64,000 nucleotides of DNA, from assembly GCA_964016885.1 (NCBI GenBank), contig CAXHJY010001750.1, positions 124,001-188,000 of the forward strand. Reading direction: 5' to 3'. The position numbers were made by a program, and so were the translations under genes. The notes beneath the pieces are model-generated. The model was not told the origin of the DNA. It did no database searches and was given only the letters and a program-made list of their open reading frames with translations. This DNA is from Eledone cirrhosa (Eukaryota). Positions 1 to 62,515 of this stretch are shown in pieces (position 1 is the first letter of the stretch; the number at the start of each line of letters is the position of its first letter).

Positions 1-1739
1 GTGGCCTGCCAGTCGGCATAGATTGATAGATAGTTAACCTTTTTGATACAAACTCGCCCCAAAAAAGCCTCTGGTTCTATGAAACAAAGCCACCCATTTT
101 GAAAGATTCATATTTAAATTAACAGCTCCCTCCCCTCAACATATCTGACATAAGAAACTTTTGTTAATCCTTTAGCATTTACACTACTCTGTATTTACTA
201 TTGTATTTTCACAGTAAACACTTTATCTCACATAACATCAAACCTACAAGATTTTGATATTAATTTTGAGAACAATACCTTAACATAAATATAAGCAGCC
301 ACTTATAGCCAGTTTGAACAGAAAAAGATGAGAGAATTCTGGCTAGACATGGCCGGTTTAAATACTAAATACCCTCTACATAATTCTCTCTAACATTTAA
401 CAAGATCAGCAATTTGTGGAGAGAGGAAGTCAGTTGTATTTTACTGGTACTTTTTATCGATACCAGAAAGATCAAAAATAAAATTGATCTCAGAGGGATT
501 TGAACAACCAAATCTGTCATTTTAATAATGAAATAATTTATAATTTTAGTAAATCCGCCCAGCTTCATTAACAAATTCAAATGCAGTATAGTTCACTAGA
601 AATACGGTAATGAAAGGGTTAAATTAACAAGCCAAATTTGAAACAGTAGCCTTTTATTCCTATACACTGAGAAACATGCTGCTTTAATAGACACTAAGGG
701 GTGTCCCACTCCTAATGGTCTAACAGTAGATTGAACACCAAGTCCCTATGTAGTATAACTGGGTGGGTGGTCTAGGAGATGACAACTCTGAGCATAAGCA
801 CCCCACTACCTTTGAGTGCCTGTGTGTAGAGGCAAAGGCTAATGGAGTCAACCCCAAGAGTGAATAAGGTCAGAAGAGAAATCGGGCCCCACCAACCATA
901 TGCATCACCAAGAGAATATGAAGGCACAAAATATAATTAGAAGAGAGGATATATTCAGATCTTAAGAAATTTTCATATGCCTGAGTTTGGTAAAATATCT
1001 TTCTGTTAATGCTATTGTAGCTGGAATTGTCAACAATATTCTTAAACTAACACTAACATTTGAAAATATCTCACAATGTTTGTAATTAGATACTTAACAT
1101 CCTGTAATGATTTAGCCAGGTTTGTTAATTCAAATGTTTACAGTATCTTTATTGGTAGAGAAATCATTGTGAAAATGTTCAGAATTAGAGTAAATTTTAA
1201 TTGTTTCTACTTTTGGCACAAGGCCAGCAATTATCCAGTGCATTACTGGTACTTTATTTTATCGACCCCGTAAGGATGAAAGGCAAAGTTAACCTCGGCG
1301 GGATTTGAACTCAAACCATAAAGGGGCGTAACTCTTTGCTGCAAAGCATAGCGTCAGACCCTCTACCGATACTGCCAATCCAGTAAATTTTAATGTGATG
1401 AAGTCAGAACTGTTTTGTTTAGTTATGTCATTGCTTGTTTAAACCAGCTGTATCTGGCCAGAGTTCTCTTACCTCTTTCTGTTCAAACCAGTTGTAACCG
1501 GCTGCTCATACTGATGTTAAGGGATTGTCCTCAAAACAAATAACATCAACATCTCATAGATTCAATATTATGTGAGATAAAGCCTTTACCATGAAAATGC
1601 TGCAGTACATATAGAGTAATGTAAATGCTAAAGGGTTAAAGCATAATTTTTAACTCTACAAAATACTTCAGCAATGCTGATATAGTCATTGCCTCCATCT
1701 CTCCCCATCTCTTACTATTATAAGAAAATAGGGACCCAT

Positions 1740-31100: not shown

Positions 31101-34100
31101 ACATGGACAATCCCATAGTGCTGGTGCCACAATAAAATGCACAGGAATGTCTGTTAGTGTGATGCAAGCTTCTGGCCTGTCTGGCATTCAGTAGAACATA
31201 TGTAAGCGAGATGTAGACTCCTGGCCCCTCGGAGAGGTCAGTAACTCCACATGAGTAAATACAGTCTGTGGAGACTTCTCCAACCCTTGCTAGCAGGGAT
31301 GACATATGTTAAATGTTGATGATGCTGATGATACACACACTTACACATACTATGTCATGTATGTTTTGTTTTGTATTTTTTCTATTTAGTGATAAAAACT
31401 TTGGAAAATGGGAGAAACATACAAGAGGAATCGGTCAGAAACTTCTAGAAAAGGTAATTTTGGATTACAAAAGCCTTTGCTGATTATGACTAGTCTTTAC
31501 CTTTATCTATTAATAGCTATATTTTCATTTGGATATAACTAGCTTTATCTGGTTATAACTAACTTTTATTTTGTTAAAGCTAGTCTATATCTGTGAAGGT
31601 GCATGGCTGAGTGGTTAGAGAATTAGATTCGCAAAGATGAGGTTATGATTTAGATTCCCAGACCAGGTGATGTGTTATGTCCTTGAGCAAGACACTTTAT
31701 TTCATGTTGCTCCTTCTCCCTGGATTTGCAACTGATAGATAGTATTAGCAAATAGAAACATTGTTTCCTCGGTCTGATTTGACCAGCTCCACCCCACTCA
31801 ATATGTGAATGAGGTCTGGGATCTTGTCAATCGACTGTTGATATCTGTTTATAACTCGTCTCTATCTGACTATGAGGGCTGGCTAAAATGTTCATAGGCT
31901 GACCAAGATACACTAATGGAATGATCAAATGAGATTTATTTTTTAACATAGTTCCTGGCATTTATTTATAAGAAGTGTTGAAATTATTGCATGCAAGATT
32001 TCACAGCAATAGCATCACTCCTTCATAGTCAGCCTATGAACTTTTCAGCTCACCCTTGTATAAATAATTGTATCTGCAGCTGGTTATTACAAAAATAATA
32101 ATGTTTTTTTTTTTCAATAATAATGATAATAATGAAAATTATTGTGTATAGTGTTCAGGTGCACTGCAACTTATCAAAGGTGCATGTATAGTACATAGAA
32201 TATTGTACAAATGTCAGGGAAGTGAACAGTGTATGAGTCATGATATACACACAGACATACATACATGCATGTGTATGGAGAGGGAATATCAGCTGTAGGT
32301 GTAGTGTTGGTGAATTTTGGGAAGCATGGAGGTTTTGAAGGCATCAGTGTCCCGACAGCTAACAACTGATGCAAGTAGTTTATTCCATGCTTCAGCAACT
32401 CCGAGCATGAAAAAATGTTTCTGAAAGTCAATGGAGCTGTGCTATTTTCTGATTTTGTAAGCATGTCCATGGATATTTATATTTTGTTGTATTTTTTCTG
32501 TAATTCTTTGATGTCACCCTTCGTCATCTGGTTTTCTTTTGCTGACAAATTTCAGATGGGTTACGAGAAAGGCAAAGGGTTAGGAAAAACTGCCCAAGGT
32601 ATCACTGCACCCATCGAAGCTGTGAAACGTCGTCGTCGTGCTGGGCTGGAGTTCAGTGGCGCCGAGAGAACTCAGCAGTCTTTGAAACACTATCCTGTAC
32701 AAGATTCTGATGAGGAGGAAGAAACTGAATTTAAGAATGAACTTCATCAGTGGAAAAGGGAACCTCTGGTGAGTCTCTGTTTTTTTTAATATCTGGTTAT
32801 AACTAGTCTCTCTCTAGTGATAACTAGTCTTTATCTAGCTATAACTAGTCTTTACCTGGTTATAACTAGTTTTTATGTAGTTATAACTAGTCTTTATCTG
32901 GTTATAACTAGTCTTTACCTGGTTATGAATAGTCTTTATCTGGTTATAACTATACTCTCAATAGTTATAAGTATCTCCCTCTCTAGTTATAACTAGTTTT
33001 TATCTGGTTGTAACTAGTCTTTCTGGTTATAATTAATCATTGTCTGGTTATTACTAGTCTTTATCTGGCTATGAGTAATCACTATTTGGTTATAACTAGT
33101 TTTTATCTCCTGACTAGTCATTTGGTTATTATCTGGTTATGGCCAGTCATTATCTAGTTATGACTAGCCATTATCTGGTTATAACTAACATCTGTCAGAT
33201 TATAACTAATTTTTATTTGGTCATATCTGGATATAACTAGTCTTTATCTGGATATAACTAGTTTTTATCTGGTTATTATGAGCATGTATTATCCTTTATT
33301 TCTAAACGAGTCCATGAATATTCATGATTGTTAAGCCGAGGGTTCGATTATCAGATGGAGTAGAGCATTGTGCCCTTCAGCAAGACATTTCATTTCATTT
33401 GTCTTTGATTCATTTCAGGGAAATAACCGTAAGCCAAAGTATGTCTATAAAACAGCACAGGATGTCATAGAGTCTGGTTTGACACGAAAGAAACGTCCGA
33501 TTCAGTCAAGTGAACTGTCAAAGGTGAAGGTCATTGACATGACTGGCAAAGAGAAACGAGTACTTTCAGGTATTTTATGCTTTTATTTCTAACATCTTTA
33601 CACCAATCTTTTTAAAATATATATATATATGTCATAATAATGGTAATAATATCATCAACCCTTTAGCATTTAAACTGGCCGTATCTGGCCAGAATTCTCT
33701 CACCTCTTTCTATTCAAACTGGCTTTAACCAGCCACTCATACATATGTTAAGGTATTGTTCTCAAAATAAATAATATCCAAATCTCATAGATTCGATATT
33801 ATGTGAGATAATAATGTAAGGTAAAGACTTTATCATGAAAATATAATAATAAATATTGAGTAATGTAAATACTAAATAGTTAATAAATGGAGTATCAAAA
33901 CTGCTTTACTGGATGGTTAAAAGCTCAATGCAATGGGGTTCATGCAGAGCTGTTATATACTCATTTTAAAAACACCAGAAACATTTATCCATTTGACAAT
34001 GTCTTGAATCTTTTGTGTTTATAAAATTAGTGTATATATATATATATATATATGTAAAAGGTAAACAGAAATAACAACACAATCGGTACAGTATATGGAA

Positions 34101-39866: not shown

Positions 39867-42800
39867 CCGTTTAACGTCCATGTTCCACGCTTGCATGGGT
39901 TTGGACGGGAGTTTTCCCACTTGAGGCAAGAGTGGTTGTCTTGCTCGCATAGGACTGTCTGGCAGGTTTTCTACAGTTGGATGCCCTTCCTAACACCAAC
40001 CACATTTACAGTGTGGGGCTGGGAGGTTTTTACCGTGTTGCCTACACGGCCACATTACAGCGTGGACTGTGTGTTTTTTTGTCGTGACACCTACACGATC
40101 TCATTTGTTTCGGCCTGGTATATACATACATATATATATGTGTGTGTGTGTATATTTATATATTTATATATATATATACACACACACACATTCATACCTC
40201 CACAACAGGATTCTACAGTTTCTGTCTACTAAATTTCACCCACAGGGTATTGGGCAAGCTGAGATTTTAGTAGAAGTCACAGTGGGGTTGAACCTGAAAC
40301 CATGTGGTTGTAAAATGAACTCCTTAAACCACACAACCATGCCTTAAAAATTCTCTATTTTCTTCACCAGGAGACAAGCTTGAACCTTTGTATGCCCCGA
40401 TCCGACACAAACTCGCCAATGCCCTCAACAAGTGGCACCCATCAGACTCGTCGGCTAAGGTTATACTTCAGCCATGGGTAAGTGTCTTTAAACCTGGCCA
40501 CATGGAGGGCTTTCTGGTGAAGAACATTCTACCTAAGCTTGAACTCTGTATGCAGGAGTTTGTCATCAACCCACACCAACAAATCCTTGGTAAGTGTAAC
40601 ATTTGTTAATAATAATAAAATTAATAATATTAAGAGATCTATTCATTCCATGTATTTCATCATTTATCATCATCATTATTTCCGTTCAGCATCAATTCTT
40701 CCATGCTTGAATGGGTTAGATATAAATTTTTGATCAGCGTTTTGAAAATTGACCTGGTAGCTATATTATTTTATGTATTTAAAATCGAATTTTACAGTTG
40801 TCAATCGATTATTGATGATAGCAGTTTCAAGACAAGAATCAATTGCTAATTCGGCAAGGAAACATATGTTAATGCTTAGAATAATCCCTATTATATCACT
40901 TATCCGTGTTAAACCTCTTTTTACCTGTTATATATATATATATTGGACCTATTATTTTTATCTAAAGACATTTTTTACAATTCCATCCCGCCCGTCTCCT
41001 TGATCTATTTTATTTCTCATTCTTTCTTCTGATGAATGACTAACGTCCATAATTGTTAAGACCCTCTTCCTGCTATATCAAGCGTTAACCTAATATATAC
41101 CTTCCATATACTGTACCGATTGTGTTGTTATTTCTGTTTACCTTTTACATACATATATATATATATATATCTGTCTATACATAAGGCTGGCATTAAATTC
41201 ATAGATATATTTTGTAATACAGAATAGCACTGAAATATAACACTGTCAACCAGTAATATGTATCTCATGTAAGAATAGCCTGGCATGAAAAATAATAATT
41301 TTACTTTGTTTCCCTTTTTGTTTTATCCAGAACCATTACATTGGATGATGTCTTGGAGAGATATCATTGCTCTTCCACACTTAATATCAATAGTGGAGAA
41401 AACTTTATTCCCAAAGTGGTTACAGGTGCTCTGTACCTGGCTTAGCAACATGCCGAATTATGAAGAAGTGACCAACTGGTATCTCGGATGGAAGTCACAG
41501 TTTCCAGAGGAATTTCTCAACCATGCTTTCGTGAAAGGTAAGTGTAATATATTGAAGCTGTCTGCATTTGTTGAACTGTTTGTGTTGACACAGTTGTAAT
41601 GTGCTGAATATCTAGACTTTACACTATATATTTCATATAACTCATTATACTATTTAGCTGTGCTGTTTACAGTAACTACATGACTAAAAGTATAACATTT
41701 GTCTCAAGTCCAGATGCTCATCATGCCAGTCCTTATCTCAGTTTCCCTGGTGTTAAGTGACTGAGAGTACAAGACTCCATCCTGGACAGGACACCAGTCC
41801 ATCACAGGTTTAATTTCCCAGCTATTGTTGGTACTCATTTTCAGTTGAGTATACAGGAGCACTGTGAAATGACGTGTGCTAACTTCTTATAATTTCTACC
41901 TAGTGCTGTTACCACAACAAATAGCACCTTGTACGGTTGTCATGCTTGATGTCGTGATAAAATGCACCTAGTCCACCCTGTAGAGTTGTCATGCAGGTGC
42001 CACAACAAAAAGCACCCAATCCACCCTCTTAGATGGTAGTGCTAATGCCACAATGAAAAGCACTGTCACCCTGTAAGATGGGTAGAGCTGATGATATGAC
42101 AAAAAACATCCAGTCCACCTGGTAAGAAGCTTATACTGGTGCCATGTCAAAAAGCACTCTGTCTATCCTATAAGGTGGTAGTACTGGTGCCATGGAAAAC
42201 ATGCATTCTCTCTAGTATCTAGAAAGAATGTATGTTTGTATGGTGCGGTGGTTTAAGATGTGTTAATGGTCTAGTGTTGTTTGGCAGTGAAGGTATATGA
42301 TCTACAGTAACTGAATAGTAAGTTGATGGTACGGGTTGTTGTATGACATGGTGTCGATGTGACTGTGGTGAGCTATTATGTAGCTGTCAAGGCAGAGGAC
42401 CTATAATGACTGTATAGTGTTGTGTGGTATTGAAAGTAAAGGACCTGTGGTGATTGTGTGATGAGTGTACAAGAGTGAGTGCGAGGGTTGTTTGATGTAT
42501 TATGGTGGGAATTGTGTGATAAAAACTGATGTCTCTATTTTATTAATAAGTATTTTATTAATAATTTTTCTTCTTTTTTTTTCCTCACCTCTCCACTACT
42601 ACCACAACTTTCACAACTCTTCAACTAAAAGACCAGTTCAACAGAGCTCTCGATATAATGAACCGGGCAGCTACTGGCTACTTCCAGCCTGGGGCTAAAG
42701 AAAACATGGCTTACTTTGCACACAACGAACGCCGTCAGATGGGGACAATATCAGCCCCGCCACCACCACCTTCATCAGTGTTGAACATGCTTCCACCCAA

Positions 42801-61898: not shown

Positions 61899-61976
<78 letters not shown>

Positions 61977-62107
61977 GAGGTTATATTTAATTTGTTGGGA
62001 TTCAACAAGCTTAAACATTTTTATAACTGATATAAAGCACTCAACAAGTTAGTGGAGTAAATACACAATATATTAATAAATGGAAACTATATTTATAAAA
62101 CCATATT

Positions 62108-62173
62108 TATTTTATTATACATATTTCAAGGGCAACCAAGGCAAATTATGGTGCACTTTCATCAGATAAAATA
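62108..62173 (-). ncRNA. Type I hammerhead-like motif, family B (left arm of palindrome)
   Basis: Same fold as the 53052 copy with a longer stem II; AUA triplet. Confidence 0.68.
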
Positions 62174-62199
62174 CAGATTTGTTTTATAAAACAAATCGG

Positions 62200-62265
62200 T
62201 ATTTTATCTGATGAAAGTGCACCATAATTTGCCTTGGTTGCCCTTGAAATATGCATAATAAAATA
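62200..62265 (+). ncRNA. Type I hammerhead-like motif, family B (right arm of palindrome)
   Basis: tattttat CTGATGA aagtgcacca...tggttgccctt GAAA tatgcat a ataaaata. Confidence 0.65.
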
Positions 62266-62515
62266 AATATGGTTTTATAAATATAGTTTCCATTTATTAA
62301 TATATTGCATATATATATATACGTTATACACACACATAAATGTATGATTATATATATGTATATATATGCACATATATATATGTATGTTTATATGTGTGTG
62401 TATATGTATATACGTTATACGTATATGTGTTTATCTATCTATCTATCTATCTATCTATTTATATCCATATCTGTCTATCGCCCTCTCTTTCTCTCTTTCT
62501 CTCTGTCTCTCTCCC

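What the first reader, a model, noticed from the sequence alone, without database searches (positions are those of the whole stretch)
61972..62307. Loopless 242-bp palindrome places one hammerhead on each strand
Seen: arms 62066-62186 and 62187-62307 are nearly perfectly complementary. Each holds a full motif (8-bp stem I UAUUUUAU/AUAAAAUA, CUGAUGA, long stem II, GAAA, AUA triplet) reading outward from the centre. The left arm extends ~95 bp further than the right. Known: Penelope-like elements often carry a partial inverted pLTR at the 5' end. Inference: this is a fold-back insertion product. A transcript across it would form a long hairpin that masks the ribozyme and could be an ADAR or Dicer substrate.
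Basis: partly seen in the sequence, partly recalled or inferred. Interest (0 to 1): 0.72.

Follow-up and report, generated by a model that had tools for sequence, protein, structure and literature searches.

The report
Head-to-head Penelope retroelement end pair
This palindrome is two short end pieces of a very common jumping gene (a Hydra-type Penelope-like retroelement) joined head to head in a TA repeat, a known kind of insertion, and its sister copies suggest the two halves were likely copied separately from two fixed start points on one RNA rather than by one strand folding back.

Summary
The palindrome is real: 121-bp arms, no loop, 2 mismatches, and a type I hammerhead motif on each strand. 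It is the end (pLTR) of a Hydra-clade Penelope-like element with thousands of copies in this 3.0-Gb genome; a full-length copy encodes RT plus a GIY-YIG-type nuclease. The exact centre is private to this locus, but the layout is routine. Of 148 sampled loci, 76 are head-to-head pairs. In 65 of these one arm ends at the pLTR end (site A) and the other 91 nt further on, at the tail end (site B). At least three other loopless double-hammerhead palindromes exist. Fold-back does not fit the family: in 25 of 65 pairs the arms do not overlap. Best reading: twin priming from two fixed internal sites, likely on one RNA, with the arms joined here at an 8-bp self-complementary word. Inverted pLTRs, tails, opposite-strand hammerheads and junction palindromes are published. 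The scan noted the same layout and idea earlier on other DNA of this genome. Cleavage, transcription and editing were not tested.

The parts
61975..62307 (.). Whole insertion: two 5'-truncated pLTR pieces of a Hydra-clade Penelope-like element, head to head
   Evidence: full-length relative L108
61975..62186 (-). Long arm, element positions 1-212 (position 1 = the centre), ending at site B (tail end)
   Evidence: 28 of 30 best copies match to 212 and 2 to 211; B-end pattern 2789 hits
61975..62065 (-). 91-nt tail: the sequence that follows the pLTR and precedes the ORF start in full-length copies
   Evidence: L108 2708-2935 runs on into the ORF at 2982
62187..62307 (+). Short arm, element positions 1-121, ending at site A (pLTR end)
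   Evidence: A-end pattern 2818 hits
62108..62173 (-). Type I hammerhead motif, family-type helix III (2 bp plus near-palindromic loop); predicted cut 3' of 62116
   Evidence: cleavage not tested
62200..62265 (+). Type I hammerhead motif with a private T>C at 62254 that breaks a helix III pair; predicted cut 3' of 62257, likely impaired
62183..62190 (.). Junction: an 8-bp self-complementary word of the element, shared by both arms (microhomology); also the 5' strand of the distal stem I extension
   Evidence: overlap 8; helix 1; centre unique
61900..61974 (.). (TA)n run at the site-B end (target repeat); its last bases match the element's own continuation
62308..62400 (.). TA/TG/CA-rich simple repeat at the site-A end; no target-site duplication can be read

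Best explanation
This is a truncated head-to-head insertion of a Hydra-clade Penelope-like retrotransposon, likely made by twin priming: two nicked strands in a (TA)n repeat likely primed two cDNAs at the element's two fixed internal sites (A, pLTR end; B, tail end), probably on one RNA, and the cDNAs were likely joined at a self-complementary 8-bp word. SHOWN: family identity, the two fixed ends, the A/B pairing rule, TA-repeat flanks, junctions with little or no spacer, and a private centre. INFERRED: that the ends are RT start sites (by analogy with PAc, PMC11167929); that both cDNAs come from one RNA, the B-primed enzyme trailing the A-primed one and either stopping short (arms without overlap) or displacing its cDNA (duplicated arms, as here); and that the perfect symmetry arises because both arms stop at a palindromic word. 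The hammerheads are passengers copied with the pLTR. Any one transcript would carry one sense hammerhead paired to its antisense copy, so the locus is predicted to be a silent by-product, not a device.
For: Pairing rule: of 148 loci picked in chromosome order by an A-end or B-end pattern, 76 have a head-to-head partner; 65 are A/B, 2 A/A, 1 B/beyond-B, 8 have one irregular end; binomial p 4e-16 against random pairing. Genome counts of the two ends are close to 1:1 (2818 and 2789). Two cDNAs needed: 25 of 65 pairs have non-overlapping arms, and the A arm reaches further 5' in 54 of 65 against 5 for B. Common source: 31 overlapping pairs share minority variants at 0.029 per nt against 0.007 in shuffled pairs (max 0.014 of 2000), 10 of them private to the pair; this locus shares one (position 32, 15 of 120 arms). 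Trailing enzyme: arms of 91 nt or less are 25 B against 7 A of 67 pairs, Fisher p 4.5e-4 (two duplicate loci still included). Among 34 pairs whose B arm passed site A, B overtakes A in 5 against 10.3 expected, permutation P 0.00075. Junction gap -10 to +2 nt in 35 of 67. TA run just beyond A in 52 and beyond B in 36 of 65. Opposite-strand joints also appear in raw DNA reads of three other runs. PAc protein cuts and extends both strands and starts at two internal sites that bound the tail (PMC11167929).
Against: 72 of 148 loci show no partner within 100 nt, so about half the insertions are one-armed or long. Over all 65 pairs the polarity is not beyond what the 91-nt offset and arm lengths give (P 0.07); the significant test is on a subset chosen afterwards. 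Equal-ended pairs (6 of 65) are not significantly enriched (3.4 expected, P 0.10). Shared variants could come from two RNAs of one source locus or from later arm-to-arm conversion. B/B-type and A/A pairs exist (L033, L115, L087, L163, L170). The end counts are rough: the A pattern also catches tail-continuing copies with a G>A variant, and the B pattern catches copies that run on into the ORF. For this locus alone, fold-back gives the same product. PAc in vitro started at sites without homology to the target, whereas both sites here resemble (TA)n. No enzyme or RNA data for this family.
Confidence: 0.62

Rival explanations
1. Two-ended priming with two RNA molecules (dual priming by a protein dimer), one started at A and one at B, joined at microhomology.
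For: Explains the A/B rule and non-overlapping arms equally well. PAc is predicted to be a dimer (PMC11167929). Dual priming is proposed for L1 (PMC2837659).
Against: Does not by itself predict that B arms are the short ones (25 vs 7 of 67), that B rarely passes A, or private variants shared by both arms (10). Gives no reason why two RNAs use different sites in 65 of 68 typed pairs.
Confidence: 0.18
2. Fold-back or self-priming (first reader; Arkhipova 2013): one strand turns back at the palindromic word and copies itself, possibly followed by deletion at the centre.
For: This locus is perfectly symmetric about an 8-bp palindrome and its arms share a minority variant. 38 loci are near-symmetric at the -61 hot spot. 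Palindromes at inverted junctions were read as self-priming in PMC3846280.
Against: The copied arm must be contained in the template arm; this fails in 54 of 65 pairs, and 25 have no overlap. Later deletion has no evident reason to trim the tailed arm 54 to 5. Fold-back does not explain a stop at site A, where one-armed copies also end.
Confidence: 0.13
3. Assembly or library artefact (inverted read duplication).
For: It lies about 1.7 kb from the end of a 188-kb unplaced contig, next to 8 kb of simple repeat. No read or contig was seen to span this centre (inconclusive).
Against: The symmetry stops exactly at the family's site A on one side and runs to site B on the other, with different flanks. 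The arms differ at 2 sites. The same layout occurs at 65 sampled chromosomal loci and as strand-switching joints in raw reads.
Confidence: 0.04
4. A functional host element (selected dsRNA hairpin or ribozyme switch), or a fold-back unit that transposes as a whole.
For: Very stable predicted hairpin. By eye it lies about 0.9 kb before a possible first exon.
Against: Young (99-100% identical to dispersed copies), centre unique, one ribozyme carries a helix III mismatch, and similar structures are numerous.
Confidence: 0.03

Closest known systems
Hydra clade of Penelope-like elements (Craig et al. 2021, PMC8557442; e.g. Hydra-1_Obim, Hydra-1/2_Amil)
   Same: Single ORF with RT and C-terminal nuclease, RWR (RWK-type), DKT, KDHK..RLIxP, CxCX5C linker, CxxC and CxH, no CCHH; hammerhead in the pLTR; (TA)n targets.
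   Different: Unit about 4 kb with a long AT-rich 3' region, against 'generally <3 kb'; tail 91 nt against 30-40 nt given for PLEs; hammerhead stem II opens with A-U pairs. The comparison with the paper's proteins was by eye; no alignment or tree was run.
EN+ PLE insertions with an inverted 5'-truncated copy and one-sided tail (PMC8557442 Fig. 2; Adineta Pen families, PMC3846280)
   Same: Head-to-head arms, tail on one side only, palindromes at the junction.
   Different: Here both arms are stubs without ORF. The family data argue for two primed cDNAs, not the self-priming proposed in PMC3846280.
Poseidon PAc of Anolis in vitro (PMC11167929)
   Same: Two internal RT start sites bounding the tail; both target strands cut and extended; AT-rich target.
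   Different: Different clade. There the hammerhead overlaps the ORF start, here the ORF starts after the tail. PAc starts lack target homology. In the parts I read, that paper does not tie one site to each arm of an inverted insertion.
PLE minimal hammerheads (Cervera and de la Pena 2014, PMC4209133)
   Same: Type I, short palindromic helix III needing a dimer, long helix II; the paper already reports dual motifs 100-700 bp apart on opposite strands in Schistosoma.
   Different: The cores here are only 42 nt apart with no spacer; stem I is 8 bp plus a 10-bp distal extension.
L1 twin priming (as described in PMC2837659)
   Same: Second target strand primes internally, giving inverted arms with a deletion at the junction.
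   Different: Works like it but is not L1: no poly(A), both sites fixed, frequent read-through duplication, inversion in about half of the sampled insertions, no readable target-site duplication.
Metazoan non-LTR retrozymes (PMC7229834, listing only)
   Same: Short type I hammerhead repeats.
   Different: Not a tandem non-coding repeat: the sequence is the pLTR of an ORF-bearing element.

Membership tests
Penelope-like element (EN+) | Single ORF with RT followed by GIY-YIG-type endonuclease, linked to this sequence | tested here: met
   L108: 743-aa frame between two copies of the repeat, same sense as the hammerhead; YRDD in L109-L111, L113-L115 (YRDY in L108); VY..YVG nuclease motif. Pfam gave no significant hit; identity rests on motifs and on by-eye match to the Hydra alignment.
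Penelope-like element (EN+) | pLTR repeated at both ends, with a tail continuing towards the ORF start | tested here: met
   L108: 5' copy -15..212 runs into the ORF, 3' copy ends at site A, short inverted B arm upstream.
Penelope-like element (EN+) | 5' truncation with tandem or inverted partial copies | tested here: met
   76 of 148 loci head to head.
Hydra clade | RWK-type and DKT motifs | tested here: met
   RWR at 39, DKT at 122 of the L108 frame.
Hydra clade | CxCX5C linker, no CCHH, CxxC and CxH near the C-terminus | tested here: met
   CxCX5C at 602, CxxC at 694, CxH at 721; absence of CCHH judged by eye.
Hydra clade | Insertion into (TA)n | tested here: met
   TA run beyond A in 52 and beyond B in 36 of 65 pairs; both flanks here.
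Hydra clade | Generally shorter than 3 kb (descriptive, not strict) | tested here: not met
   L108 spans about 4.0 kb, 2708 to about 6702.
Hydra clade | RT groups with Hydra in a tree | not tested
   No reference proteins were loaded; by-eye match only.
Type I hammerhead ribozyme | Core CUGANGA...GAAA-NUH in a three-way junction, conserved | tested here: met
   Core invariant but for position 7 (U/G/A) in 16 sequences that I chose for divergence.
Type I hammerhead ribozyme | Stems kept by compensatory change | tested here: inconclusive
   94.5% of cells paired, covariation 0.137 vs 0.097, 0 of 500 shuffles; stem I 100% paired with G-U changes. But only 4 pairs change on both sides (68 of 500 shuffles reach that) and the sequences are related. 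No Rfam hit.
Type I hammerhead ribozyme | Self-cleavage | not testable with these tools
   Needs an assay. Closing helix III in a monomer costs about 3-4 kcal/mol.
Non-LTR retrozyme | Non-coding tandem monomers, no own ORF (definition partly recalled) | tested here: not met
   The sequence is the pLTR of an ORF-bearing element; sampled copies are solo or inverted.

The most novel reading that the evidence does not exclude
Hydra-clade Penelope elements integrate by programmed twin priming. Two RT subunits start at two fixed sites 91 nt apart on the same capped RNA, each from one nicked strand of a (TA)n target. The trailing one stalls behind or displaces the leading cDNA, and both can run to the RNA's 5' end (hot spot at -61, often with an extra G). 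One rule would then explain inverted pLTRs, the one-sided tail and loopless double-hammerhead palindromes, replacing the published self-priming model.
Probability: 0.45. Interest if true: 0.65.

Novelty: new member of a known kind. Interest (0 to 1): 0.36.

Why it matters
The locus itself is an ordinary by-product. Its value is as one point in a family-wide pattern. How Penelope-like elements make inverted repeats and one-sided tails is called unresolved in PMC8557442, and the in vitro work (PMC11167929) stops before second-end joining. The A/B rule, the polarity of the arms and the -61 hot spot give sharp predictions for a marked-template assay. If about half of this family's thousands of insertions are inverted pairs, they are also a large pool of potential dsRNA in this genome, though I have no RNA evidence for that.

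Tried and rejected
Rfam at gathering scores: no hit in the window. Folding of single arms: not better than shuffles. Repeat finder on the whole window: swamped by (TA)n. Pfam on the element's ORF: no significant family. Sequencing runs: no RNA holder listed; this says nothing on expression. Contigs of four runs laid on the palindrome: no listed piece spans the centre, inconclusive for a high-copy repeat. Raw RAD reads were laid on a monomer, not on this locus, are dominated by a sister subfamily and can hold chimeras, so they support the family layout only. I first suspected the ORF was antisense to the hammerhead; wider regions showed this came from inverted arms. Hammerhead cut as the turning point: rejected, the centre lies 71 nt 5' of the predicted cut and inside no catalytic helix. 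A cis dimer of the two hammerheads: rejected, they are on opposite strands. Editing as the source of the arm differences: only 2 sites, neither A>G in the element's sense. Host context: a G-patch exon at 32.4-32.8 kb; no gene shown to span the locus. Search of earlier findings by sequence: nothing. Literature searches for twin priming or two-ended models in PLEs listed no paper that proposes them by title or abstract start; the library lacks most subscription papers, and I did not see most supplements, including those of PMC11167929.

Full report
OBSERVATION. The arms 62066-62186 and 62187-62307 are complementary at 119 of 121 positions with no loop. Each carries a type I hammerhead motif reading outward: 8-bp stem I, CUGAUGA, 9-bp bulged stem II, GAAA, a 2-bp helix III with near-palindromic loop, and an AUA triplet. 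Both mismatches are private to the right arm (1 of 116 and 1 of 125 arms). The T>C at 62254 breaks the third helix III pair. The left arm runs 91 nt further, to 61975. Rfam has no hit and single arms fold like shuffles. The motif call rests on 16 family sequences chosen for divergence: the core is kept, position 7 varies, and 94.5% of stem cells pair. Double changes are few (4 pairs), so covariation is suggestive only.

WHAT IT IS. The window lies near the end of a 188-kb contig of a 3.0-Gb animal genome; earlier notes call it octopus, which I did not test. The long arm has 1575 candidate matches, and the 40 scored are 98-100% identical. Following longer copies led to RT-nuclease reading frames in the same sense as the hammerhead. 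Locus L108 is full length: a short inverted arm, a 5' copy of the repeat that runs through the 91-nt extension into a 743-aa frame, a long AT-rich 3' region, and a 3' copy that stops where the short arm here stops. The repeat is therefore a pLTR and the extension is the PLE tail. The protein has RWR, DKT, KDHK, CxCX5C, CxxC and CxH. These match the Hydra description (PMC8557442 section 11) and, by eye, its supplementary alignment. Pfam finds nothing and no tree was built.

HOW COMMON. The exact 22-bp centre occurs once in the genome. The layout is common. End patterns give 2818 hits for site A and 2789 for site B (both rough). I took the first 30 hits of each pattern plus 100 further listed hits on contig C1 and removed 12 duplicates, leaving 148. 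Of these, 72 have no partner within 100 nt; 76 are head to head: 65 A/B, 2 A/A, 1 B/beyond-B and 8 irregular. In 23 of the 65 both arms hold the whole hammerhead. At the -61 hot spot 38 loci are near-symmetric and 7 of the 38 have no loop in the matched string. Of 15 fetched, 4 are loopless, and 3 of these carry both hammerheads with arms longer than here. Raw DNA reads of three other runs (one study) show strand-switching joints such as 172/-61 and 145/-20 at low counts. No data span this particular centre.

MECHANISM. A fold-back arm must be a subset of its template. In 54 of 65 pairs the tail-less A arm reaches further 5' than the B arm, in 5 the reverse, in 6 they are within 5 nt; in 25 the arms do not overlap. 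Two separately primed cDNAs are needed. Both ends abut TA runs (52 and 36 of 65), and the element sequence at both sites resembles (TA)n, exactly at B and through G-T pairs at A (inference). Three observations favour one RNA: shared minority variants (0.029 vs 0.007 per nt; 10 private), short B arms (25 vs 7 of 67, p 4.5e-4), and B rarely passing A once it has crossed site A (5 of 34 vs 10.3 expected, P 0.00075, post hoc subset). Against: over all 65 pairs that test gives P 0.07, equal ends are not significantly enriched (P 0.10), and conversion or two RNAs from one source could give shared variants. Here both arms stop at an 8-bp self-complementary word of the element (overlap 8), which gives a loopless palindrome by microhomology; for this one locus fold-back cannot be excluded. 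A sharp 5' stop at -61 (1737 vs 616), with a non-element G in 10 of 30 cases, likely marks a capped RNA start. I saw the hot spot; the cap test was prompted by note e1-9550100.

CONSEQUENCE. A transcript across the locus would fold into a 121-bp hairpin (-186 kcal/mol) that buries its one sense hammerhead. The two motifs cannot form a cis dimer because they are on opposite strands. No RNA run was listed, so transcription, editing and small RNAs are open.

KNOWN WORK. PMC8557442 (passages, section 11, supplement passages) describes inverted truncated copies, one-sided tails and Hydra elements. PMC11167929 (parts 1-2 of 4) shows two internal RT starts bounding the tail, both strands cut and extended, and a protein-assisted hammerhead not needed for insertion. 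PMC4209133 (parts 1-2 of 4) reports dual minimal hammerheads on opposite strands and low activity. PMC3846280 (passages) reports junction palindromes and proposes self-priming. PMC2837659 (passages) defines twin and dual priming for L1. PMC7229834 and PMC5625713 were seen as listings only. Searches listed no paper that, by title or abstract start, applies twin priming to PLEs. Earlier notes of this scan reached the same reading on other DNA of this genome; they are unchecked and I do not count them as support.

VERDICT. A real feature and a new family member of a known kind of structure. The locus is ordinary; the family-level A/B rule and polarity are the part worth testing. Interest 0.36. 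The boldest reading (programmed twin priming on one RNA) has probability 0.45 and interest 0.65 if true.

Noticed in passing
window 52915-53187 (-): One-armed copy of the same family, about -59..212, with a 9-nt deletion in hammerhead stem II, between TA runs.
   Followed up: partly
window 52372-52756: Unrelated inverted repeat, 182-nt arms, 97% complementary, 21-nt spacer, starting at a TA run.
   Followed up: no
window 52239 (+), 34172 (-), 22184 (+), 13206 (-): Further hammerhead-like motifs of other families; the first two are nearly identical to each other.
   Followed up: no
family position -61 (e.g. L052, L180, L215, L230): Sharp 5' stop: 1737 genome hits for the word just inside it against 616 when 6 upstream bases are added. 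Of 34 arms lacking the upstream sequence, 30 keep the A at -61, and in 10 of these a G precedes it where the element has C, as a copied cap would give (3-4 of the 34 look like variant continuing copies).
   Followed up: partly
run X3 contig, joint at window 62133/62240: A symmetric fold-back of the same arms with a 40-nt loop made of ORF-start sequence, depth 411, far above the other listed joints: possibly a multi-copy fold-back sub-element (tables 5 and 5c).
   Followed up: no
L108 2870-2990: The tail lies inside a predicted long stem formed with sequence just before the ORF start, with an inner hairpin ending near site B; a candidate RT-binding structure (single MFE fold only).
   Followed up: no
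L109:576, L113:1049, L075:2073, L005:1282; raw reads X15-X17: Sister subfamilies (about 78-85% identical) keep the core, stems I and III but rewrite stem II; one ends near position 109 rather than 121.
   Followed up: partly
window 32382-32786 (+), 42568-42972 (+): Exons of a G-patch protein gene (Pfam PF01585); TFIP11-like by recall only.
   Followed up: no
window ~63227 (+) and ~61690-61760 (-): By eye, possible divergent first exons (ATG with splice-donor-like sites) on either side of the palindrome; unverified.
   Followed up: no
L149, L150, L151 (C1 86.08-86.14 Mb); L048/L049: Identical paired insertions repeated by segmental duplication; counted once. L036/L137/L190 and L068/L164 share junction geometry and were kept as separate loci.
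   Followed up: partly
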